A stretch of 7,049 nucleotides of DNA. Origin: a virus. Taxonomy: Duplodnaviria > Heunggongvirae > Uroviricota > Caudoviricetes. Position numbers and translations under genes: made by a program. Below, in pieces: positions 1 through 6,970 of this stretch. How positions within the stretch are numbered: position 1 is the first letter of the stretch; each line of letters begins with the position of its first letter. Under the pieces are notes generated by a model. That model worked only from the letters and a program-made list of their open reading frames with translations, did not search any database and was not told where the DNA came from. The stretch lies in the IMG/VR virus record IMGVR_UViG_3300014682_000012; one strand, given 5' to 3'.

Positions 1-759
1 CTCAACCAGATCACTATCGAAATTCACCGAAATAAGTACGTTCTGATTCTTTTTCGGCATTCGCTCACTACAGCTTATCCAACCATCCGGAGTTACCGGA
101 GAGTTGCCCGATAGTGCATTCTGCTCCAGTGATGCTTTTACAAACCACGCTGCCTGAACTATTACGCCATGAATCCAGCGCAAATCAGCATCGCGATCGT
201 TCTTTTTCATCTTCTCGCCACTTAAAGCCTGGCTTATGTGGCTGCGTACCAGGTCTTCATGTAACTCCTTCGCATCCTCAATAGTGAAACCACCAGGCAG
301 GCGAGCCGGGGTTACATGAGGGTTGCCTTCCCTCTGACTCTGAAGCATGGCGGCGCGGCAGGCATTCCAGGCAAATAGTGCGGCTTCTTCCACTGAAGGC
401 GGAGAGTATCGCTCGATAAACGCCTGTGCATTTGACAGCCTCCACTCATGAGGCACTACCAGCGCTGGAGGGGCGGTGTAAAGCTTACGGGTCTGAACAC
501 CTGCCCCCAGGCATTTCTCTTCCTCAACAAATCCTTCAAAAGCACATTCCCCGCAATCTTCCCATTCTCCCCATTCATCATATTCCGTATCCCACAGGCG
601 GTACTGATATGCCACCGGCTCTGCTTCCAGCGATGCCAGTGCAATACGAAACACATTGGCAAGCAGGCTGTTTGAAGATTGGTTATCGTGCGCCGGGTCA
701 CTCAGGAAACCAGTGATGAATGATTTAATTTCCGCGTTTTCTCTGGTAATAGTGGTCAT
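1..759 (-). CDS. Hypothetical prophage protein, 3-prime end beyond window start (at least 253 aa); acidic Cys/Trp-rich N-terminal part, possible DUF551-like C-terminal segment
   Basis: Not in the ORF track because it runs off the edge. Plus-strand frame-1 triplets 1..759 contain no TTA/CTA/TCA, so the minus-strand frame is open from ATG (759..757) to position 1. RBS AAGAAGGGG lies about 7 nt upstream. The ATG overlaps the TGA of the upstream ORF (ATGA). Translation begins MTTITRENAEIKSF... and includes ...PDGWISCSERMPKKNQNVLISV, which resembles DUF551 from memory. Confidence 0.6.
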   Translation of the reverse strand, partial: MTTITRENAEIKSFITGFLSDPAHDNQSSNSLLANVFRIALASLEAEPVAYQYRLWDTEYDEWGEWEDCGECAFEGFVEEEKCLGAGVQTRKLYTAPPALVVPHEWRLSNAQAFIERYSPPSVEEAALFAWNACRAAMLQSQREGNPHVTPARLPGGFTIEDAKELHEDLVRSHISQALSGEKMKKNDRDADLRWIHGVIVQAAWFVKASLEQNALSGNSPVTPDGWISCSERMPKKNQNVLISVNFDSDLVE

Positions 760-989
760 GCCGTAGCCCCTTCTTGATATTTTTCAAACCAGAACACAAC
801 CGGGTCAGATTTCATTTCAACCAAACCCATACGAATCAGCGCCTTGCCTTTCCCGGAAGCAAGGAATTCACGACGACCATCACTGATAATTCGCCGATAA
901 TCTTCCAGGCTGCTGCAATGCTTGTGCAGATTGCATGGGTGGCATGCCGGAACCATGTTGGATATATCGTCACGTTCCTGGTGAAGCAT
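756..989 (-). CDS. Hypothetical Cys/His-rich small protein (about 77 aa from the first ATG after the gap); true start uncertain because of the N-gap
   Basis: Open frame from ATG at 989..987 to TGA at 758..756 (MLHQERDDISNMVPACHPCNLHKHCSS...). The stop overlaps the downstream start (ATGA), suggesting translational coupling. The track ORF 756..1028 extends through the 10-N gap, so the N-terminus cannot be resolved. Confidence 0.4.
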   Translation of the reverse strand: MLHQERDDISNMVPACHPCNLHKHCSSLEDYRRIISDGRREFLASGKGKALIRMGLVEMKSDPVVFWFEKYQEGATA

Positions 990-999
990 NNNNNNNNNN
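990..999. other. Run of 10 ambiguous bases (assembly gap or masked segment)
   Basis: Directly visible as nnnnnnnnnn at 990..999; it interrupts coding sequence on the minus strand. Confidence 0.95.
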
Positions 1000-1158
1000 G
1001 TCGTTATACAATTCAATAACTGGCTCAATTATTTTCCCGATTGCCCAGACAAAAATTAGCGGGGATATCGGTATCATCAACACGATAAACAGAATGAGAA
1101 ACAGGAATTCTGTTGTTCTACTCTTTCGTGGATATTTTTTTCTGAATAATGTGACCAT
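1000..1158 (-). CDS. Possible small membrane protein (at least 53 aa), C-terminus lost in the N-gap
   Basis: ATG at 1158..1156. Translation MVTLFRKKYPRKSRTTEFLFLILFIVLMIPISPLIFVWAIGKIIEPVIELYND has a basic N-terminus followed by a roughly 23-residue hydrophobic stretch typical of a single transmembrane helix. The frame differs from ORF 756..989, but gap length is unknown. No strong SD directly upstream. Confidence 0.3.
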
Positions 1159-1164
1159 TCATTA

Positions 1165-1213
1165 CCGCCCTTTCGGGCGGCCTCCTGATGTTCTGAGGGT
1201 GCAGAAAACCCTC
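1165..1213 (-). other. Two GC-rich stem-loops in the 133-bp intergenic region (CCGCCC-tttc-GGGCGG and GAGGGT-gcagaaa-ACCCTC)
   Basis: Perfect inverted repeats at 1165..1180 and 1195..1213. Neither is followed by a T/U run on either strand. On the minus strand an AGGAGG (1186..1181) sits immediately 5-prime of the first hairpin. Confidence 0.4.
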
Positions 1214-1291
1214 CGGTTAAGGATTTAATAAAAATCACTTCTGATTTAAATTTTCAGTGTTTTGTTGTCAGGTGGTTTATCGCCTTTATGC

Positions 1292-1597
1292 TTAAGCCTT
1301 ATTTCTCAGCCATACACAAACAGGACCATCTTCAGTGTCATGAATGGAACCAATGAACCAACCTTCACCTTCCGGGCTCTCCGGTTTCCAGGAGGCAATA
1401 TCGGGACCATCCGCGTCCAGATTAAAATCATCTTCATCCATAGTTCTGATGGTCCATTGAAGATTATTTTCCTCCATCCAGGCGTTAAACTCTTCCGTTG
1501 AAATATGTTCTCTACCATCACAGAATTTTTCATATTCAGGATGCGTCCAGCAGCCATATTCATCACGTACTACTGGTATTTCTTTAATTTCATTCAT
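1292..1597 (-). CDS. Strongly acidic hypothetical phage protein, 101 aa
   Basis: ATG at 1597..1595 with GGGAG RBS 7-8 nt upstream. The start overlaps the stop of the upstream 84-aa gene by 8 nt. About 25 Asp/Glu against about 8 Lys/Arg (net charge near -17). Sequence MNEIKEIPVVRDEYGCWTHPEYEKFCDG... has no recognisable catalytic motif. Confidence 0.7.
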   Translation of the reverse strand: MNEIKEIPVVRDEYGCWTHPEYEKFCDGREHISTEEFNAWMEENNLQWTIRTMDEDDFNLDADGPDIASWKPESPEGEGWFIGSIHDTEDGPVCVWLRNKA

Positions 1598-1844
1598 TTC
1601 TGTTCTCCCACGTTTTCAGACTTTCACCACAGAACGGGCAAAATGAAACTCGTATTGGTGATTTAGAAAATTCACCGGAACGCAACATCACCAAATCAGG
1701 TCCACGAGTTAAACTCTCATTCCAGATTTTGTATATCAGCAGACCCTTTCGCGTCGTGCATTCAGCATCATGCTCAAGAGACTTTGCCAGTGCTGCACAT
1801 GGTTCTATCTTGTTGCTATTAATTTGGCATTTTGACTCACTCAC
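1590..1844 (-). CDS. Hypothetical Cys-rich small protein, 84 aa (possible zinc-binding, C-terminal CPFCGE)
   Basis: GTG start at 1844..1842 preceded by a strong AGGAGG SD with 6-nt spacer. The start overlaps the TGA of the upstream methyltransferase-like gene (GTGAGTGA). Five Cys residues including a C-x2-C pair. Confidence 0.6.
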   Translation of the reverse strand: MSESKCQINSNKIEPCAALAKSLEHDAECTTRKGLLIYKIWNESLTRGPDLVMLRSGEFSKSPIRVSFCPFCGESLKTWENRNE

Positions 1845-2322
1845 TGGTCGCCTCCTTCACAAAAATAATCCAGTGTGTTTTATCGTTCTTGCCGGTACGC
1901 TGGCTGATAACTGGTTTCGCGTTGGTTAGTGCCAATATCTGGCTAACCGGTATTTGCGTTTCATTCCATTTAAATATCAGAACGCCATGTGGACACAACA
2001 CACGAAAGGCTTCTATAAATCCCTGTCGCAAATCATCACGCCAGGTATCTTTATTCAGCCGTCCATACTTCTTTCCCATCCAGGCGTTATCACCAACACG
2101 CTCAAGATGCGGAGGGTCGAATACAACAACCGGAAACGACGCGTCTGCAAACGGCAGCGCACGAAAATCAGCGATAATGTCAGGACTAATAATCAGTTGT
2201 CGTCCATCACATAGCGTATGTTTCTCTTTCCGGATATCGCTAAATATCGCCCGGTCGTCATTCTTATCAAACCAGAACATGCGGCTGCCGCAGCACATAT
2301 CAAGAATGGCCGGTGCGCTCAC
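1837..2322 (-). CDS. Small class-I SAM-dependent methyltransferase-like protein, 161 aa (motif I LDMCCGSR, motif IV DPPH)
   Basis: GTG start at 2322..2320 overlapping the TGA of the upstream gene (GTGA), with AGGAGGTG SD about 7 nt upstream. AILDMCCGSR near the N-terminus resembles a SAM-binding motif I, and VVVFDPPH resembles the (D/N)PP(Y/F/H) motif IV of amino-methyltransferases. Too small for a canonical DNA MTase with a target-recognition domain; substrate unknown. Confidence 0.65.
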   Translation of the reverse strand: MSAPAILDMCCGSRMFWFDKNDDRAIFSDIRKEKHTLCDGRQLIISPDIIADFRALPFADASFPVVVFDPPHLERVGDNAWMGKKYGRLNKDTWRDDLRQGFIEAFRVLCPHGVLIFKWNETQIPVSQILALTNAKPVISQRTGKNDKTHWIIFVKEATSE

Positions 2323-2741
2323 AGCATCACCTCCTGATAATTACCCTGATAGAACGCCAGCACGCGCTGCATAACCTCGCTCTTCCGGCACTCGCGACAG
2401 ATTATGTTCTGACGCCTGTCGTAGCGGCGTATTTCTCCGTCAGGTAATGACCAGATAAGGTCCGGATCAACCACAACCGGTTTCTTCAGCTTTGCCCTCG
2501 ATAATTTTTTGCGGGCATTTTGCCAGTCTTTACGAGCCTGTTCAGACGGGAATAACCCGTAGCCAGAATTGTATACATCGCCACTGGCAACCAGCTCTCT
2601 GGCGAGAACACTCATCAGATATCTTGTCGCACCTGTTTTCGCTTCCAGTTGTCGTAACGTTTCGCGCCCGCTCTGGCGCACGAGTTCAACAACCTGCCTC
2701 TTAATTTTTTCCCGCTCTTCTTGTGTAAATACTTTTGCCAC
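2319..2741 (-). CDS. Hypothetical phage protein, 140 aa, basic, immediately downstream of the replication initiator gene
   Basis: GTG start at 2741..2739 with AGGAGG SD 4-5 nt upstream. Sequence MAKVFTQEEREKIKRQVVELVRQSGRETLRQLEAKTG... has no Walker A motif, so it is not a DnaC/P-type helicase loader despite occupying that position. Confidence 0.6.
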   Translation of the reverse strand: MAKVFTQEEREKIKRQVVELVRQSGRETLRQLEAKTGATRYLMSVLARELVASGDVYNSGYGLFPSEQARKDWQNARKKLSRAKLKKPVVVDPDLIWSLPDGEIRRYDRRQNIICRECRKSEVMQRVLAFYQGNYQEVML

Positions 2742-2781
2742 AAGTCCTCCTGAAAATTACCTCATGACCTGAAATAAACAC

Positions 2782-3852
2782 TTACCCCCTGAAGCCCGGT
2801 GGAATTTCGGTATCCGGTTCAGAAATATGATTCACACAACGCTGGTTGTTCGTGCCGCTTACCGGGAGCAACCAGGGGTTTTCAAAATTCCGGTCCGGTC
2901 CAAAAAACGTCGTCGCTCGCTGAACAAATTCCGTTCCCGTTTTCCCGGTAGCCGCTAGGTATCTTGCGTAACGCCTCACACCATCCAGCATGGCCTCTGG
3001 TGGCACCCCCTCGCGTAATCTGGCCTTCCAGGCACTGAAAGCGGATTTCTTCGGGTTTGCCCCGGCACGCAACGGGTATTCCCGCCAGACCTGTTCGAAC
3101 ACATCCGGATAATCCACTCGTCCCACAGGCTGCCCGGTGTTTTCCGGGACTACCCGATCGGCTTCCCGCTGAATGGCGGAATCGGCTTCAGGCTGCTGCA
3201 GTTGGTGTGATTGCTCCGGCCTTGCGGTCATCACCTGCTGCACAGCGCCCGAATCGGCTTTCAGCGCATACGCTGAATCGGCTTCCGGTGTCGTGCCTGC
3301 TGGCTGACCAGGATTGACGGTCTGAACATCCCCTGCCTGGTTCGTGGCGTTTTTTACGCCATGGACCATAGTGTTTTGATCTTCTTGATCTGTATCTTTA
3401 TCTGTATCTTTATCTGTCGTGACTCGTCGTGACATGTGCGTGACATTTCGTGACGCGCCGTGACAATCTCCATTTTGTTCCCGCTTTCTTTCCCTCTCTC
3501 GCTGCGCCCTCTTGCGCTCTGCAGGAGATTTTGCGGTTTGCGAAATATTGCCGTTGTCCTCTTTAAGCACCTGGCGTTTTTCCCATCCAGTGATTAAATC
3601 ACCATCAAGTACCCGCCCCTGCATCGTCTGCAAAATTGAATCAATTACCTCTTCTGTCACGTCGAGCGCACTTGCCAAATCTTCTGTCGTGACATCAATG
3701 TGACCTCGCGTGACATTTCGTGACGCGCTCACCAGGAGGTGGATATACACTGCCATCACTGTTGCAATTGGCTGCCCTGACACCCTGGCAATTGTTCGCC
3801 ACTTAGGGTCATTTGGCATGTCATGCCATAATCTGAGCCAGGCGTTAGCCAT
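2782..3852 (-). CDS. Phage replication initiator-like protein (N-terminal winged-helix-like region, low-complexity acidic linker, conserved C-terminal YdaU/DUF1376-like domain)
   Basis: Long ORF (track 2782..3858 begins at GTG; ATG at 3852..3850 has a GGTG RBS). N-terminus MANAWLRLWHDMPNDPKWRTIARVSGQPIATV..., C-terminus DYPDVFEQVWREYPLRAGANPKKSAFSAWKARL...FFGPDRNFENPW. It lies after cro-like and cII-like genes as in lambdoid phages, and carries internal iteron-like repeats. Family assignment is from memory. Confidence 0.75.
   Translation of the reverse strand: MANAWLRLWHDMPNDPKWRTIARVSGQPIATVMAVYIHLLVSASRNVTRGHIDVTTEDLASALDVTEEVIDSILQTMQGRVLDGDLITGWEKRQVLKEDNGNISQTAKSPAERKRAQRERERKREQNGDCHGASRNVTHMSRRVTTDKDTDKDTDQEDQNTMVHGVKNATNQAGDVQTVNPGQPAGTTPEADSAYALKADSGAVQQVMTARPEQSHQLQQPEADSAIQREADRVVPENTGQPVGRVDYPDVFEQVWREYPLRAGANPKKSAFSAWKARLREGVPPEAMLDGVRRYARYLAATGKTGTEFVQRATTFFGPDRNFENPWLLPVSGTNNQRCVNHISEPDTEIPPGFRG
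3361..3464. repeat. Ori-like module inside the initiator gene: AT-rich segment with two GATC sites and a 12-bp tandem repeat (TCTGTATCTTTA, about 2.5 copies), followed by five CGTGAC hexamers phased at 10-11 bp
   Basis: CGTGAC begins at 3418, 3428, 3439, 3449 and 3459. GATC at 3369 and 3378. Tandem repeat at about 3380..3415. The DNA repeat encodes the TDKDTDKDTD linker. Confidence 0.6.
3656..3728. repeat. Second iteron-like array: one inverted GTCACG plus four direct (C/T)GTGAC hexamers at 10-11 bp phasing, including an exact 21-bp copy of GCGTGACATTTCGTGACGCGC also present at 3438..3458
   Basis: Hexamers begin at 3688, 3699 (TGTGAC), 3709 and 3719; inverted copy at 3656..3661. The 21-bp exact repeat is at 3708..3728 and 3438..3458, 270 bp apart. 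Confidence 0.55.
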
Positions 3853-3923
3853 ACTCACCTCTTTTGATACCGAATCTTTTTACTCACAAATTGCCGGAAG
3901 TGATCCGGTATGAATATTGCGAG

Positions 3924-4349
3924 TCAATGCACAGCCACAATATTTCCTGCAGGGCCACCACGATTCATCTGGTTGAAACCAGCGATCGCCACTGCGACAA
4001 AATCATCAGCGTCTCTCACCAGTCGTTCCCGCGTCTCCACTAGTTCCCGAAAATAGGCTGAGCTATGGCTGCGCATTCGGGCCACCAGCAGAGGTGGCAT
4101 TGCTTTTTCGATAGCTGGTAACAACGCCTGAATTTTTTTAACCGCATCAGGGGTGTCTTTCTCCACCCAGCGGAAAATTTTCTGAGTATTGCGAGCCATG
4201 GCTTCCGGATGGCTGTCGTCATACAGTTCCGGGAACGTCATTCCCAGCTCGAAATACGCTTTGGTAATTTTCGCAGCCGGTACTTTTTCGCCGTCCGGAT
4301 GCGCCCAGGCATTCATCGCCATGCGGATGTGTTCATGCTTGATTTTCAT
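3924..4349 (-). CDS. ydaT: YdaT-family protein (CII-like regulator position; historically annotated toxin YdaT), 141 aa
   Basis: ATG at 4349..4347 with GGGGG RBS 5-9 nt upstream (the track ORF starts further upstream at 4421). Begins MKIKHEHIRMAMNAWAHPDGEK..., which I recall as YdaT-like. Position immediately after the cro-like gene matches the Rac ydaS-ydaT arrangement. The start overlaps the end of the cro-like gene by 17 nt. Confidence 0.65.
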   Translation of the reverse strand: MKIKHEHIRMAMNAWAHPDGEKVPAAKITKAYFELGMTFPELYDDSHPEAMARNTQKIFRWVEKDTPDAVKKIQALLPAIEKAMPPLLVARMRSHSSAYFRELVETRERLVRDADDFVAVAIAGFNQMNRGGPAGNIVAVH

Positions 4350-4575
4350 GAATCCCCCCTTGGTTAGAAGGCGGATTATGATCAGAACCGGGAATGACAA
4401 CCGTCGGTATGTGTAACTCATATTTGAGCGCCCCGGCAGTGACTGCCTGAATTAGCAACGCCCATTTCCACGGAACCTCTTCCCCCCACATGCTGACTGT
4501 GGTTTTTGACGTTCCTAGAGCTGCGGCTGTTTTAACAACTCCGCCAAAATAGCCTAATACTTCTGATTTTTTCAT
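4333..4575 (-). CDS. Cro/YdaS-like small HTH regulator, 80 aa
   Basis: ATG at 4575..4573 with GGAG RBS 7 nt upstream (track ORF 4333..4617 has a longer, unsupported N-terminus). MKKSEVLGYFGGVVKTAAALGTSKTTVSMWG... is a helix-turn-helix signature. Divergent from the CI-like gene with a 91-bp operator/promoter region between them. Confidence 0.7.
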   Translation of the reverse strand: MKKSEVLGYFGGVVKTAAALGTSKTTVSMWGEEVPWKWALLIQAVTAGALKYELHIPTVVIPGSDHNPPSNQGGIHENQA

Positions 4576-4666
4576 GAGTCGCTCCATAAAACTGAACGCC
4601 AAAAGTTTAATAATCAAAACCGAAGAAAGTCAAGAAACAAAACCATCTGTGTTTTAAAATCAAAAC
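4576..4666. promoter_or_regulatory. Divergent immunity control region: putative PR-like promoter for cro, putative leaderless PRM-like promoter for cI, and three GTTTT/AAAAC inverted-repeat candidate operators
   Basis: Minus strand: -35 TTGACT (plus 4628..4633), 18-bp spacer, -10 TAAACT (plus 4604..4609). Plus strand: TAAAAT (4655..4660) ends 6 nt before the cI ATG at 4667, with no SD. Candidate operators AGTTTaataatcAAAAC (4604..4620), AAAACcatctgtGTTTT (4639..4655) and GTTTTaaaatcAAAAC (4651..4666) overlap these promoter elements. Confidence 0.5.
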
Positions 4667-5305
4667 ATGAGCAAGCAAACAATATCTGAACGCATAACCC
4701 AACGTATGCATGCGCTAAACCTGAAAGGCAAAGACCTTGTCAATGCCACTGGCGCATCAAAAGGCTCCGTAAGTCAATGGATGAACGGTGGAGGAGCGCC
4801 GTCCTCGCGTTACATAAGTTCACTGGCAAAGATATTGAAAGTAAACGAAAATTGGCTTCTTAATGGAGGAGAGTTAAATACAGGTGATTCGCTTGATCTA
4901 TCTTTACCGCCGATAAAAACGGTTCCGCTACTATCACTTCAGCAGGCAGCAAGCTGGAGTGATTATATGAAAAATTCCTCAATAACCTCTTGTGTGCAGC
5001 TTGTCGGAGAAATCCCGGCCAATACCTTTGCAGTTGTTCTAGAGAGTGACAGTATGTCAACATCTGGTGGGGGAGTTTCCATCCCAAATGGTTCAACAGT
5101 TTTTGTTGATCCCGATCGAACCGTACAACCAGGAAATATTGTCCTTGCCTTGCCCAAAGGGACCACAACACCTGTCATTCGTAAACTGGAGATTGAAGGG
5201 CCGGATATTCTTTTAGTCCCCACGAATCCTCGCTACCCTTCAATTATGCTGGATGATCTATCTTGCATATTGGGCGTATGCTTTAAAATTCAACAAGATA
5301 TTTAA
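4667..5305 (+). CDS. CI-like phage repressor, 212 aa: N-terminal XRE-type HTH plus C-terminal LexA/S24 peptidase-like autocleavage domain
   Basis: Complete ORF. HTH LKGKDLVNATGASKGSVSQWMNG. C-terminal domain with the Ser in VLESDSMS and the Lys in VIRKLEIEG at spacing consistent with the S24 Ser-Lys dyad. No SD before the ATG, consistent with a leaderless transcript as for lambda cI. Confidence 0.9.
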   Translation: MSKQTISERITQRMHALNLKGKDLVNATGASKGSVSQWMNGGGAPSSRYISSLAKILKVNENWLLNGGELNTGDSLDLSLPPIKTVPLLSLQQAASWSDYMKNSSITSCVQLVGEIPANTFAVVLESDSMSTSGGGVSIPNGSTVFVDPDRTVQPGNIVLALPKGTTTPVIRKLEIEGPDILLVPTNPRYPSIMLDDLSCILGVCFKIQQDI

Positions 5306-5333
5306 CCAACCTCATCTATTTGATTAACTGTAT

Positions 5334-5350
5334 GCCATCGTGGTGATGGC
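5334..5350. promoter_or_regulatory. 17-bp perfect palindrome GCCATC-gtggt-GATGGC downstream of cI and upstream of the rightward operon promoter (candidate operator or protein-binding site)
   Basis: Inverted repeat seen directly in the sequence; flanked by TTAAC at 5324 and 5351. Confidence 0.35.
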
Positions 5351-5389
5351 TTAACAGCTGCCTGCTCAAAATGTTTTGATAAAAAAACA

Positions 5390-5418
5390 TTGACCTGAAA
5401 AGTTCATTTTTCTAAACT
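5390..5418 (+). promoter_or_regulatory. Putative sigma70 promoter of the ydfABC-dicF (dicB-type) operon
   Basis: TTGACC (5390..5395), 17-bp spacer, TAAACT (5413..5418). Followed by a leader of about 180 nt before the ydfA-like start. Confidence 0.45.
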
Positions 5419-5596
5419 TCATTCATTCCCTCACCCCACCCCACAGAATGCAGGGCAATACTTCGAGTTACCAGGCAGTGGTCAGGGGTTAAGTAGCCAG
5501 CCCGAGGCGTAAGAACATGACGGCAGGGTTCAACTTTAATAACTATGCAGCAGGTTTTTGTTCCGCTACCCGGCGTTAAGGGGAAATGAGGTCAAC

Positions 5597-5752
5597 ATGG
5601 ATACTATCGATCTTGGCAACAACGAATCTCTGGTGTACGGCGTGTTTCCCAACCAGGACGGCACATTCACCGCGATGACGTATACCAAAAGCAAAACGTT
5701 TAAAACCGAAAATGGCGCCCGTCGCTGGCTGGAAAGAAACTCAGGTGAGTGA
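5597..5752 (+). CDS. ydfA: YdfA-like small prophage protein (DUF1391-type), 51 aa
   Basis: ATG at 5597 with GAGG RBS about 7 nt upstream (track ORF 5558..5752 has an unsupported N-terminal extension). MDTIDLGNNESLVYGVFPNQDGTFTAMTYTKSKTFKTENGARRWLERNSGE. Gene order ydfA-ydfB-ydfC matches the Qin dicB operon as I recall it. Confidence 0.7.
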   Translation: MDTIDLGNNESLVYGVFPNQDGTFTAMTYTKSKTFKTENGARRWLERNSGE

Positions 5753-5753
5753 T

Positions 5754-5882
5754 ATGGATTTCGACACAATCATGGAAAAGGCTTACGAAGAATACTTCGA
5801 AGGCCTTGCCGAAGGCGAAGAAGCTCTCAGCTTCAGTGAGTTTAAACAGGCGCTTTCCAGCTCGGCAAAATCTAACGGCTGA
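5754..5882 (+). CDS. ydfB: YdfB-like small protein, 42 aa (below the ORF-track size cutoff)
   Basis: ATG at 5754, one nt after the ydfA-like TGA, with AGGTGAG SD. MDFDTIMEKAYEEYFEGLAEGEEALSFSEFKQALSSSAKSNG; stop TGA 5880..5882. Confidence 0.6.
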   Translation: MDFDTIMEKAYEEYFEGLAEGEEALSFSEFKQALSSSAKSNG

Positions 5883-5911
5883 TAAGCGAAGCAGCACCGC
5901 GAGGAATCAGT

Positions 5912-6130
5912 ATGCAGAAACGAGAACCCGTCATCATCGCGCCAGACTATACCGATGATGAACTTTATGAGTGGATGCGCCAGAAAATTAATGCAGCGCA
6001 GGATCTGAAATGGGCCAATGAAGCCAGGGCTAAGCAGGCTGAAAATCTGTCCGCTCTGGAGCAGGATATCACCAGGCTGGAAAAAGCAGCGGCATTAAGC
6101 ATTGCCAGAATGATTACATACCCGCGTTAA
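5912..6130 (+). CDS. ydfC: YdfC-like small protein, 72 aa
   Basis: Complete ORF with GAGGAA RBS. MQKREPVIIAPDYTDDELYEWMRQKINAAQDLKWANEARAKQ... Position after ydfA/ydfB-like genes. Confidence 0.7.
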   Translation: MQKREPVIIAPDYTDDELYEWMRQKINAAQDLKWANEARAKQAENLSALEQDITRLEKAAALSIARMITYPR

Positions 6131-6265
6131 TAGCTAACCAACGAAGCTAAGGTTGGTAATTAAGGAGTTCTCCACGGGTGAGGTGGAGTGCGTGCGCCGG
6201 ACACGGGTGAGCATCCGGTACGTTCTTTAAAAATCTGGATAGTCCCAACTTATTTAAACGGTTAA

Positions 6266-6697
6266 TTATCTTGAGTTCATCCAGAACTTATTATTGCAAG
6301 CGGGGCAAAAAGTACGAAAATGAGCATCAAAGCGCATTATTTCCATTGGCTGAAGTACAGATATTACCTTTTTTCCAAAACATTGTGGGCAAAGATGCAC
6401 AGTTATCTCAGTATCGCCTATAAATTGCTTCTTGGAATATACAAGGGTTCCAGAATCAAGCTTGTTAAGCTTGTAACCTTCCGCCTGTCGCTGAAAATCT
6501 TCTGTCTCTGCAATTTTTGCTTTGAGATGCATTATCTCTTCATCACGAAAGCGGATCGCATCGCAAAGAGAGAAGCATTCCGCCTGAAGCGTGATTAGTT
6601 TGTTCTGAAGTTCAATAGTTGCGGCTTTAACTTCTGCATCCGTTTTTGCGTCATTAATAACCTTAGCGAGACCAGCTGTCTCCTTTATCGCAGCCAT
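6266..6697 (-). CDS. Hypothetical coiled-coil plus zinc-ribbon protein (about 143 aa), antisense to the dicB-type operon between ydfC and dicF
   Basis: Minus-strand ORF (track 6266..6826), most plausibly starting at ATG 6697..6695 (alternatively the in-frame GTG at 6724, or further upstream). Alanine/lysine-rich predicted helical N-terminus, then HLCPQCFGKK...FRTFCPACNNKFW (two CxxC pairs about 22 residues apart). GC about 40 percent, against about 55 percent in flanking DNA. Own promoter upstream. Confidence 0.5.
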   Translation of the reverse strand: MAAIKETAGLAKVINDAKTDAEVKAATIELQNKLITLQAECFSLCDAIRFRDEEIMHLKAKIAETEDFQRQAEGYKLNKLDSGTLVYSKKQFIGDTEITVHLCPQCFGKKVISVLQPMEIMRFDAHFRTFCPACNNKFWMNSR

Positions 6698-6737
6698 AGC
6701 CGCTGACAGTTCTGCTATCACGTTGAGTACTCTTCTC

Positions 6738-6790
6738 GTTGTTGGGGATATCCGGATTATACAAATTTCTTGTTGTTGGGGAATAACAGG
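6738..6790 (-). promoter_or_regulatory. Putative leftward promoter with extended -10 (TGTATAAT), flanked by two copies of an 11-bp direct repeat
   Basis: Minus-strand TATAAT at plus 6761..6756 with TG immediately upstream. Weak -35 (ATTCCC at 6784..6779). The repeat GTTGTTGGGGA on the plus strand (6738..6748 and 6772..6782) covers the predicted +1 and -35 regions. Confidence 0.4.
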
Positions 6791-6970
6791 AACCACCTCG
6801 CCTGACGTGGTTAAAAGCAGGCACACAACGCGAAAGCGTACGGCGAGGTAGCTGGTTTATAGATAGCCTGTCGTTAAATTTTCGTCGACCGTGCGCTTCC
6901 GGTTGTGGCACTCCGCGAAATGGCGCGGCGGTAAGTATGGCGGGGTTATTCCTTCCCCGTTGAGGACACC

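What the first reader, a model, noticed from the sequence alone, without database searches (positions are those of the whole stretch)
1292..2322. Translationally coupled cassette: minimal SAM-methyltransferase, Cys-rich 84-aa protein and strongly acidic 101-aa protein
Three genes with overlapping stop/start codons and GTG starts form a tight unit in the accessory zone downstream of the replication genes. The methyltransferase-like protein has motif I and a DPPH motif IV but no room for a target-recognition domain. The 101-aa protein has a net charge near -17, the kind of property seen in DNA-mimic anti-restriction proteins such as Ocr or ArdA. The cassette could be an anti-defence or epigenetic module, but this is speculative.
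Basis: inference. Interest (0 to 1): 0.6.

Follow-up and report, generated by a model that had tools for sequence, protein, structure and literature searches.

The report
Three unlinked prophage accessory genes
The three tightly packed genes are real and lie in the early operon of an E. coli lambda-like prophage, but they travel independently among phages, so this is an ordinary mosaic of accessory genes (a very small, widely conserved phage methyltransferase, a small zinc-type protein and an acidic protein of unknown function), not a conserved anti-defence cassette.

Summary
The sequence observation holds. Three minus-strand genes are packed with 8-nt overlaps and Shine-Dalgarno sites: 161 aa at 1837-2322, 84 aa at 1590-1844 and 101 aa at 1292-1597. 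The 101-aa protein has net charge -17. One correction: it starts with ATG, not GTG. The coupling also extends upstream to a DUF977 gene.

The window is the early-right operon of a Rac/Qin-like E. coli prophage.

- **161-aa protein.** It belongs to a very large, highly conserved phage family of minimal DPPH methyltransferases (PHROG 954, REBASE-derived PADLOC models). Relatives occur in Listeria, Staphylococcus, Gordonia and haloarchaeal viruses. It most likely acts as an orphan DNA methylase during lytic replication. I found no characterised member.
- **84-aa protein.** It has four conserved cysteines and is probably a zinc-binding protein.
- **101-aa protein.** It is a conserved alpha/beta domain (PHROG 1372) with an acidic variable loop. 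Its predicted fold matches no solved structure, including the DNA mimics.

In complete E. coli genomes the three genes occur in 854, 381 and 779 genomes respectively, but together in only 21. Only the 84/101 pair shows partial linkage, in 252 genomes. Interest is modest.

The parts
1837..2322 (-). MT161: 161-aa minimal class I SAM-dependent amino-methyltransferase. It has motif I ILDMCCGS at residues 6-13 and motif IV DPPH at 69-72, with no target-recognition domain. It uses a GTG start that overlaps the DUF977 stop (GTGA).
1590..1844 (-). p84: 84-aa protein with four conserved cysteines (C6, C16 and the C69-P-F-C72-G knuckle), a presumed small zinc-binding protein. It has a GTG start, an AAGGAGG Shine-Dalgarno site and an 8-nt overlap with the MT161 stop.
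   Evidence: phrog_4030 (unknown function) at 3.8e-40. The alignment of 42 homologues shows the conserved cysteines. No Pfam, NCBIfam or PADLOC match was found. No PDB relative was found by profile. Only 67 clusters are related, almost all from E. coli. dN/dS is 0.13-0.22.
1292..1597 (-). p101: 101-aa acidic protein (net charge -17, pI 4.19). It is a compact alpha/beta domain with invariant G15, W17, H19, P72, F81, H86, G91, C94 and W96, plus a variable acidic loop at about residues 53-79. It has an ATG start and an 8-nt overlap with the p84 stop.
2319..2741 (-). DUF977 / YdaW-like gene. It is translationally coupled to MT161 by a 4-nt overlap and is part of the same packed run.
   Evidence: Pfam DUF977 at 1.4e-31. 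phrog_142 at 2.5e-48. The RefSeq annotation in E. coli A37 and 55989 agrees.
2782..3858 (-). Phage replisome organizer / replication initiation gene, located upstream in the same operon.
   Evidence: phrog_3729 'replication initiation protein' at 5.5e-258. RefSeq annotates it as 'phage replisome organizer'.
4604..4633 (-). Promoter-like site upstream of the Cro-like gene, the probable early-right promoter from which the run would be transcribed. The assignment is inferred.
   Evidence: Consensus scan, 9 of 12 matches.

Best explanation
The region is a stretch of the early-right (lytic) operon of a Rac/Qin-like lambdoid E. coli prophage. Small accessory genes are packed head-to-tail behind the replication genes, as in lambda's nin region. 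The three genes are separate, independently exchangeable modules. Their overlapping stops and starts reflect phage genome compaction and co-transcription, not an obligate shared function.

1. **MT161.** It is a member of a very large and strongly conserved phage family of minimal DPPH amino-methyltransferases of about 155 aa. The most likely role (inferred) is an orphan DNA methylase. It would be silent in the lysogen and made after induction or infection. Lacking a recognition domain, it would methylate replicating phage DNA at adenine N6 or cytosine N4 with little or very short sequence specificity. That would give broad protection against host restriction.
2. **p84.** It is a small four-cysteine, presumably zinc-binding protein of unknown role.
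3. **p101.** It is a conserved alpha/beta domain with an acidic loop that recurs alone or fused to many partners in phages of Proteobacteria. It is probably a protein-binding or host-takeover module. Its target is unknown.

Shown here: gene structure, family membership, distribution and lack of linkage. Inferred: DNA as the substrate, the timing of expression and any anti-restriction effect.
For: **Context.**
- The block is 99.8% identical to an E. coli A37 prophage, which has the order cI/Cro/YdaT/replisome organizer/DUF977/MTase/hypothetical/hypothetical, followed later by Q, lysis and terminase genes.
- No strong internal promoter or terminator lies on the minus strand.

**Independence of the three genes.**
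- In complete E. coli genomes, MT161 is in 854, p101 in 779, p84 in 381, the p84+p101 pair in 252 and the whole block in 21.
- In phage mEp460 the p84-p101 pair sits in the early-left region without the methyltransferase.
- In PhiR42_1 the methyltransferase follows the DUF977 homologue without the pair.
- In Salmonella prophages p101 follows recE/recT.
- In large E. coli contigs p101 and p84 lie 2 kb apart in the opposite order, or p84 is absent.
- Across 52 other species there are 2 co-occurrences with the methyltransferase and none with p84.
- Gene-by-gene identities against 55989 and mEp460 differ, which indicates a recombination mosaic.

**The methyltransferase.**
- It matches phrog_954 and REBASE-derived PADLOC models.
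- The DPPH motif is conserved.
- Homologues occur in 254 phage genomes. In Listeria phage A118 the gene overlaps the DnaD-like helicase-loader gene. In Gordonia TimTam and Streptococcus Javan501 it directly abuts a second, larger DNA methylase.
- Minimal or unspecific phage-borne DNA methylases have precedents. The 141-aa PamA gives DpnI-sensitive DNA (PMC12435837). M.EcoGII is a non-specific prophage methylase that is silent in the lysogen (PMC5778455 abstract).
- Prophage orphan methylases are typically not transcribed in lysogens (PMC8597746; PMC4659465).
Against: - I found no experimentally characterised member of the MT161 family. The 'DNA methyltransferase' labels are annotation by similarity.
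- The model is poor for residues 1-31, which include motif I.
- Conservation is very high across the whole protein between phages of distant hosts: 50% identity to Listeria and Streptococcus phages and 64% to Gordonia phages. That would also fit a universal non-DNA substrate.
- p84 and p101 are adjacent in 252 of 381 p84-bearing E. coli genomes, so some functional link between those two is possible.
- The p101 domain is fused to Lar-like restriction-alleviation domains (3 proteins) and a Tad2-like domain (1 protein), which hints at an anti-defence context.
Confidence: 0.6

Rival explanations
1. The three genes are one functional anti-restriction or epigenetic cassette. The methyltransferase would use p84 as a zinc-finger specificity or activator subunit (as Trm11 uses Trm112), and p101 would be a DNA-mimic inhibitor of restriction enzymes.
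For: The genes are translationally coupled with overlapping stops and starts. The block recurs in a few genomes, including E. coli 55989, and in 5 of 80 viral contigs. One RefSeq record labels the methyltransferase 'TRM11 family'. p101 has net charge -17.
Against: The block is present in only 21 genomes, against 854 that carry the methyltransferase. The methyltransferase family spans Firmicutes, Actinobacteria and archaeal viruses, where p84 does not occur; p84 gave only 67 clusters, almost all from E. coli. Among the 80 closest viral contigs, 59 have none of the other tracked genes beside the methyltransferase and 10 more have only DUF977. The p101 fold matches no known DNA mimic.
Confidence: 0.06
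2. p84 and p101 form a two-gene module that is independent of the methyltransferase. A small zinc-ribbon protein would work with the acidic domain to neutralise a host defence such as Type I restriction. This would parallel the single polypeptides that join a Lar-like zinc ribbon to a p101-like domain.
For: The pair is adjacent and overlapping in 252 E. coli genomes. That is 66% of p84 carriers and 32% of p101 carriers. The same pair occurs in phages mEp460, Rac-SA53 and phiSTEC1575-Stx2k. Fusion proteins P0324 and P0374 carry an N-terminal Lar_restr_allev domain and a C-terminal p101 domain, the same order as p84 then p101. P0410 has the reverse order, and one protein carries a Tad2-like domain. 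Acidity is conserved across p101 homologues.
Against: p84 shows no detectable similarity to Lar. Most p101 homologues lack p84: none of 52 species loci have it, and it is absent from the Salmonella and Pseudomonas contexts. In large E. coli contigs the two genes are separated and reordered. Fusion partners of p101 are very diverse, and Lar accounts for only 3 of 73. Adjacency among close relatives may simply be hitch-hiking. The conserved residues of p101 are Trp, His and Cys, not surface carboxylates.
Confidence: 0.17
3. MT161 is not a DNA methylase. It would methylate a universally conserved non-DNA target, such as an exocyclic amino group in rRNA or tRNA (like RsmD or Trm11), a protein glutamine (like HemK), or a nucleotide-derived small molecule, as a host-takeover function.
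Confidence: 0.25

Closest known systems
Phage orphan DNA methyltransferase family PHROG 954 / PADLOC (REBASE-derived) MTase_II PDLC03288 and oMTase PDLC03730, for example Listeria phage A118 ORF50
   Same: The match is full-length and highly significant. MT161 is 50% identical to A118 ORF50, with the same motifs, including ILDxCCGSRMFW and VVFDPPHL. The position behind the replication genes is the same. No restriction endonuclease partner is present.
   Different: Nothing structural differs; MT161 is an ordinary member. The family itself has no characterised specificity that I could find. The A118 note 'methylates cytosine residues' and other labels (N4-cytosine, N6-adenine) are inconsistent annotations.
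Amino-methyltransferases with a (D/N/S)PP(Y/F/W) motif: beta-class DNA methylases (TTHA0409 2zie, M.PvuII 1boo, M.MboIIA 1g60, M.RsrI 1eg2) and tRNA m2G enzymes (Trm11 6zxv, TrmN 3tma)
   Different: MT161 has His in the fourth motif position. Its motif I comes before motif IV (gamma-like order), not the permuted beta order. It has no recognition domain, THUMP domain or other accessory domain, and it is 70-170 residues shorter. Sequence profiles find no PDB relative.
Minimal or unspecific mobile-element DNA methylases: S. aureus prophage PamA (141 aa), prophage M.EcoGII, plasmid M.EcoGIX
   Same: They are phage- or plasmid-borne orphans. M.EcoGII is not expressed in the lysogen and is non-specific (PMC5778455 abstract). 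M.EcoGIX is described as methylating adenine independently of sequence context (PMC4659465). PamA shows that a protein of about 140 aa without a separate recognition domain can methylate DNA (PMC12435837).
   Different: PamA has NPPY and was identified as Dam-like. M.EcoGII is a beta-class enzyme. I did not show homology of any of them to MT161. This is an analogy of mechanism, not membership.
DNA-mimic anti-restriction proteins Ocr (T7 gp0.3) and ArdA
   Same: They are small, strongly acidic phage or plasmid proteins expressed early. p101 has net charge -17 and pI 4.2, and its acidity is conserved in homologues.
Lar / Ral restriction-alleviation proteins of Rac and lambda (Pfam PF14354 Lar_restr_allev)
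   Same: They are small cysteine-containing proteins of lambdoid prophages. Lar-like domains are fused to the p101-type domain in three proteins.
   Different: p84 does not match PF14354 even at E<=10, nor a profile built from the fused Lar domains. In p84 the CPFCG knuckle is C-terminal, whereas in Lar it is N-terminal.
Lambda nin region and the P22 ea / nin accessory gene arrays
   Same: These are runs of short genes with overlapping stop and start codons between the replication genes and Q. Their content is mosaic and exchanged gene by gene between lambdoid phages. This comparison rests on established knowledge of lambdoid genomes, and the context is shown.
   Different: The gene content differs. 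None of the three proteins is a named Nin protein.

Membership tests
Class I SAM-dependent amino-methyltransferase | Glycine-rich SAM-binding motif I near the N-terminus of the Rossmann fold | tested here: met
   ILDMCCGS lies at residues 6-13. L7, D8, C10 and C11 are invariant and G12 and S13 are nearly invariant (90% or more) in 83 homologues. All eight positions apart from M9 are identical in the Listeria and Staphylococcus phage homologues.
Class I SAM-dependent amino-methyltransferase | Catalytic (D/N/S)-P-P-(aromatic) motif IV after motif I-III | tested here: met
   DPPH lies at residues 69-72. FDPPH is present in 115 of 120 homologues, with one FDPPY variant. His replaces the usual Tyr, Phe or Trp.
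Class I SAM-dependent amino-methyltransferase | Rossmann-like methyltransferase fold | tested here: met
Class I SAM-dependent amino-methyltransferase | Binds SAM and transfers a methyl group | not testable with these tools
   This needs biochemistry.
Type II / orphan DNA methyltransferase | Significant match to DNA methyltransferase family profiles | tested here: met
   phrog_954 at 9.9e-86. PADLOC MTase_II at 4.3e-71 and oMTase at 4.4e-47. These models rest on annotation, not on assays of this family.
Type II / orphan DNA methyltransferase | A target-recognition domain that reads a DNA sequence | tested here: not met
   The whole protein is 161 aa and the conserved core of about 155 aa is fully taken up by the catalytic fold. 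The 248-aa relatives add a C-terminal extension of about 88 aa that is absent here.
Type II / orphan DNA methyltransferase | Methylated bases in DNA attributable to the enzyme | not testable with these tools
   I found no characterised member in the held literature.
Type II / orphan DNA methyltransferase | Orphan status: no cognate restriction endonuclease nearby | tested here: met
   The neighbours are replication genes, DUF977 and small hypothetical genes. PADLOC finds no defence protein among the neighbours.
Ocr/ArdA-type DNA mimic | Strong net negative charge | tested here: met
   Net charge is -17 and pI is 4.19. Homologues have a median near -16.
Ocr/ArdA-type DNA mimic | Sequence or fold similarity to a known mimic | tested here: not met
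Ocr/ArdA-type DNA mimic | Carboxylates arrayed on a rigid surface with DNA-like spacing | tested here: inconclusive
   The charge is concentrated in residues 53-79 (median -8). This is a variable loop with pLDDT of about 69.
Ocr/ArdA-type DNA mimic | Alleviates restriction in vivo or binds a restriction enzyme | not testable with these tools
   This needs plating and binding assays.
Lar-family restriction alleviation protein (for p84) | Match to PF14354 / Lar-type zinc ribbon | tested here: not met
   A Pfam scan of 42 p84 homologues at E<=10 did not list PF14354. An HMM built from the fused Lar domains found nothing in the p84 alignment.
Co-functional operon module (three-gene cassette) | Co-conservation of the genes across related elements | tested here: not met
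   The gene counts are 854, 381 and 779 genomes, against 21 with the whole block. Among 52 species loci, 2 have the methyltransferase nearby and none have p84. Among 80 viral contigs, 5 have the trio.
Trm11-Trm112-type methyltransferase plus zinc-finger activator (MT161 + p84) | The partner is regularly encoded with, or present alongside, the methyltransferase | tested here: not met
   p84 is confined to E. coli and close relatives. The methyltransferase family spans many phyla. Only 7 of 80 methyltransferase contigs have p84 within 3 kb.

The most novel reading that the evidence does not exclude
The p101 domain (PHROG 1372) would be a new, widespread anti-defence module of Proteobacteria phages. 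It would be an acidic-loop domain that blocks a DNA-binding host immunity protein. It would work with interchangeable small zinc-binding partners: p84 here, and Lar-like ribbons when fused. Under this reading, the p84-p101 pair is a previously unrecognised two-part restriction-alleviation system.
Probability: 0.13. Interest if true: 0.6.

Novelty: new member of a known kind. Interest (0 to 1): 0.3.

Why it matters
As a cassette it does not matter, because the arrangement is a chance mosaic typical of lambdoid prophages. Two by-products are worth a specialist's attention.

First, the methyltransferase belongs to a very abundant family of about 155 aa with no recognition domain. There are at least 7988 clusters at 90% identity and 254 sequenced phages from E. 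coli to Listeria, Gordonia and haloarchaeal viruses. No Pfam model reaches threshold for it, and I found no assigned specificity. Knowing its substrate would explain a gene carried by a sizeable share of temperate phages, and it might yield a compact unspecific methylase tool.

Second, p101 is a conserved, promiscuously fused phage domain of unknown function, with weak links to anti-restriction domains.

Tried and rejected
- **Sequence and profile searches of all three proteins against the PDB** gave no true hits. The p101 hits were artefacts: its WTHPEYEK resembles the Strep-tag II on tagged constructs.
- **Testing whether p84 is a Lar-like or ClpX-type zinc finger** gave no Lar signal. The only ClpX-type signal was a weak match (E about 0.004) of the p84 profile to ORFs annotated zf-C4_ClpX, around the CPFCG knuckle. 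I rejected it as uninformative.
- **Looking for p84 or methyltransferase domains fused to p101-family proteins as a Rosetta stone** found none, apart from a 20-residue methyltransferase remnant in one protein.
- **Literature searches for a characterised member of the methyltransferase family** found none. I searched on the DPPH motif, orphan prophage methylases, the E. coli O104:H4 and ST131 methylomes, group A Streptococcus prophage methylases and TRD-less enzymes. The Murphy et al. 2013 review of phage orphan methylases was not held.
- **PamA as a family member** was considered and not adopted. It has NPPY and is described as Dam-like, and I had no sequence to test.
- **Plus-strand ORFs and RNA families in the region** gave no matches.
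- **A minus-strand terminator-like hit at 2292-2280** lies inside the motif I codons and was dismissed as chance.
- **No structure was predicted for p84**, because both prediction jobs went to p101 and MT161.
Full report
**What is there.** The window is a piece of a lambdoid prophage.
- Bases 1000-6218 are colinear with a prophage of E. coli strain A37, at 97.9% identity overall and 99.8% over bases 1200-2400. That prophage is integrated beside a tRNA-Ser gene and mtfA.
- An S24/HTH repressor gene lies on the plus strand at 4667-5305.
- The early-right operon runs divergently on the minus strand: a P22_Cro-type gene (4333-4617), a YdaT-family gene (3924-4421), a replisome organizer (2782-3858) and a DUF977 gene (2319-2741), followed by the three genes of the finding.
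- In strain A37 the operon continues to hokD, RusA, Q, tRNAs, the lysis genes and terminase.
- In the window a run of ten N at 990-999 interrupts this. Bases 1-989 come from a prophage late region containing an HNH endonuclease gene.

| Gene | Coordinates (minus strand) | Length | Start | Stop |
|---|---|---|---|---|
| MT161 | 1837-2322 | 161 aa | GTG | TGA |
| p84 | 1590-1844 | 84 aa | GTG | TGA |
| p101 | 1292-1597 | 101 aa | ATG | TAA |

- Consecutive genes overlap by 8 nt and 8 nt. MT161 also overlaps the DUF977 stop by 4 nt (GTGA), so the coupled run is longer than three genes.
- Good Shine-Dalgarno sequences precede each start.
- The net charge of p101 is -17, from 25 acidic and 8 basic residues, with pI 4.19.
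- All three genes evolve under purifying selection, with dN/dS of 0.08-0.22, and each matches a PHROG family at E<=4e-40. They are real genes.
- The antisense ORFs have no family matches and no Rfam family is present.
- Homologues of MT161 always carry a few residues before ILDMCCGS. This supports the GTG start and shows that PGAP's 153-aa call in A37 is too short.

**The methyltransferase.** MT161 matches phrog_954 ("DNA methyltransferase") at 1e-85. It also matches two REBASE-derived PADLOC profiles over its full length, MTase_II at 4e-71 and orphan MTase at 4e-47. Pfam gives only a sub-threshold Methyltransf_11 match, and sequence profiles find nothing in the PDB.
- Motif I (ILDMCCGS) precedes the catalytic DPPH, which is conserved in 115 of 120 close homologues.
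- The fold therefore confirms an amino-methyltransferase. It does not decide the substrate.
The conserved core of about 155 aa is the whole protein. Some relatives of about 248 aa add a C-terminal extension of about 88 aa that is absent here.

**How widespread the methyltransferase is.**
- The word-indexed protein search reached its limit, with 7988 of 8000 scored candidates significant.
- tblastn finds the family in 254 sequenced phages. Identity to MT161 is 64% in Gordonia phages, 47-58% in Staphylococcus, Listeria A118, Enterococcus and Streptococcus phages, about 52-54% in Vibrio phages and 34-38% in haloarchaeal tailed viruses. The Staphylococcus and Listeria homologues I aligned keep the same motifs.
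- In Listeria phage A118 the gene overlaps the stop of the DnaD-like helicase-loader gene, the same position as in this prophage.
- In Gordonia TimTam and Streptococcus Javan501 it directly abuts a second, larger DNA methylase.
- This placement in replication modules and methylase clusters, with no endonuclease nearby, is the main reason I favour an orphan DNA methylase that acts on replicating phage DNA.

**Precedents and the limit of the methyltransferase inference.** There are precedents for the mechanism.
- The 141-aa prophage enzyme PamA renders S. aureus DNA DpnI-sensitive (PMC12435837).
- The prophage enzyme M.EcoGII is non-specific and silent in the lysogen (PMC5778455).
- Prophage orphan methylases are generally untranscribed in lysogens (PMC4659465; PMC8597746).

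I did not find any assay of a member of this particular family, so DNA as the substrate remains an inference. The unusually even and strong conservation between phages of unrelated hosts would also suit a universal non-DNA target. I keep that as a rival at about 0.25.

**The 84-aa protein.** p84 (phrog_4030, unknown function) gave only 67 clusters, nearly all from E. coli. Homologues also occur in lambdoid phages (mEp460, Rac-SA53, phiSTEC1575-Stx2k) and in P1/P7/D6/SJ46-type phage-plasmids.
- Four cysteines are conserved: C6, C16 and the C69-P-F-C72-G knuckle. The fifth, C29, is not conserved. This pattern suggests a single zinc site.
- It matches no Pfam family, including Lar, and no solved structure by profile.
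- I did not model its structure.

**The 101-aa protein.** p101 (phrog_1372, unknown function) is modelled with good confidence (pLDDT 83.7, pTM 0.72).
- The model has two helices packed on a three-stranded sheet, with a less confident segment at about residues 53-79.
- The invariant residues are G15, W17, H19, P72, F81, H86, G91, C94 and W96. They lie in the motifs WTHP and GWFxGSIHDTEDGPVCxWLR.
- The negative charge is conserved in sign across 84 homologues, from -4 to -22. It lies mainly in the variable 53-79 segment, where the median is -8.
- Nothing therefore links p101 to Ocr, ArdA or any other solved mimic. A novel mimic cannot be excluded from charge alone.

**Domain fusions of p101.** An exhaustive HMMER search finds 910 clusters.
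- About half of the best hits are longer proteins in which the domain is joined, on either side, to something else. One protein contains two copies.
- Among 73 such proteins Pfam recognises Lar_restr_allev in three, an Rv2179c-like exonuclease in two, and a Tad2-like domain, KTSC and others in one each. Most partners are unknown PHROGs.
- The Lar and Tad2 fusions are a weak hint of an anti-defence setting. The sheer variety of partners argues more for a general binding module.

| Feature (megablast, at least 80% coverage, 5426 complete E. coli genomes) | Genomes |
|---|---|
| MT161 | 854 |
| p101 | 779 |
| p84 | 381 |
| p84 + p101 adjacent pair | 252 |
| whole block | 21 |

Other evidence points the same way.
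- In mEp460 the p84-p101 pair sits in the early-left arm with no methyltransferase.
- In PhiR42_1 the methyltransferase follows the DUF977 homologue with no pair.
- In Salmonella prophages p101 follows recE/recT.
- In large E. coli contigs p101 and p84 are 2 kb apart in reverse order, or p84 is missing.
- Across 52 species-representative loci, p101 has the methyltransferase within 4 kb twice, in another order, and p84 never.
- Of the 80 viral contigs with the closest methyltransferases, 59 have none of the other tracked genes nearby, 10 have only DUF977 and 5 have the trio.
- Identities to reference phages change from gene to gene. p101 is 98% identical to mEp460 but 83% to 55989, while the methyltransferase is 90% identical to 55989. 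This is the signature of recombination at gene boundaries.

The tight packing is what lambdoid early operons look like everywhere. It is not evidence of joint function. The only linkage that survives is the partial one between p84 and p101.

**Verdict.**
- The methyltransferase call, including the missing recognition domain, is supported at the family level.
- The DNA-mimic idea is neither supported nor excluded.
- The three-gene module is not supported.

The best description is an ordinary mosaic of three independent phage accessory genes, so I rate it a new member of a known kind with modest interest (0.3). The two loose ends worth experiments are the substrate of this very common minimal methyltransferase family, and the function of the p101 domain, alone or with p84.

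Noticed in passing
window 990-999 and 1-989: A run of 10 N marks a scaffold join. Bases 1000-6218 are colinear with the E. coli A37 prophage, but 1-989 matches prophage late-region DNA (HNH endonuclease, DUF551) found elsewhere. The apparent ORF at 756-1028(-) spans the gap and is chimeric. The DUF4014-like gene at 970-1158(-) (phrog_1832) is truncated by the gap.
   Followed up: yes
window 2299-2322; L001 10099-10123: RefSeq/PGAP in E. coli A37 starts the methyltransferase at the internal ATG (153 aa), which removes the ILD of motif I. Homologues and the E. coli 55989 annotation support the upstream GTG that overlaps the DUF977 stop.
   Followed up: yes
window 1525-1548 (p101 residues 17-24): p101 contains WTHPEYEK, which is very close to the Strep-tag II sequence WSHPQFEK. 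It produces spurious profile hits to tagged constructs in the PDB.
   Followed up: partly
L149 3507-3971 (Listeria phage A118), L151 918-2968 (Gordonia TimTam), L155 2501-3737 (Streptococcus Javan501): The minimal methyltransferase family is conserved at 47-64% identity in phages of Firmicutes and Actinobacteria and at 34-38% in haloarchaeal viruses. It sits directly after the helicase-loader gene in A118 and directly beside a second, larger DNA methylase in TimTam and Javan501. No Pfam model reaches threshold for it.
   Followed up: partly
proteins P0006, P0011, P0097 and others (248 aa): About a quarter of the closest methyltransferase homologues carry a conserved C-terminal extension of about 88 aa and unknown function. 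It is absent from the window's protein.
   Followed up: no
proteins P0324, P0374, P0410, P0319, P0164; L056 5314-5646: The p101-type domain is fused to Lar-like zinc ribbons in either order and is duplicated in one protein. In P0164 it is preceded by a KCGC...C..H cysteine motif. That same motif opens the separate gene downstream of p101 in Salmonella prophages.
   Followed up: partly
L047 3893-4874 (Pseudomonas siliginis); L010 3866-5179 (Enterobacter): These are the only two of 52 species loci where a p101 homologue and the minimal methyltransferase are neighbours. The order is p101 then methyltransferase, the reverse of the window, and there is no p84.
   Followed up: no
window 6266-6826 (-): This is a 186-aa ORF (phrog_1244, unknown function) with C-terminal CxxC...CxxC motifs. 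It lies beyond the ydfA/B/C-like small genes on the repressor side, and this stretch (6219-6812) is not colinear with the A37 prophage.
   Followed up: no
window 2319-2741 (-): The DUF977 (YdaW-like) protein is labelled 'Ren-like exclusion protein' in PHROGs and 'LygF' in one phage record. It is the gene most often found directly upstream of the methyltransferase in E. coli: 5 of 7 full-length sampled rows, and 14 of 80 viral contigs.
   Followed up: partly
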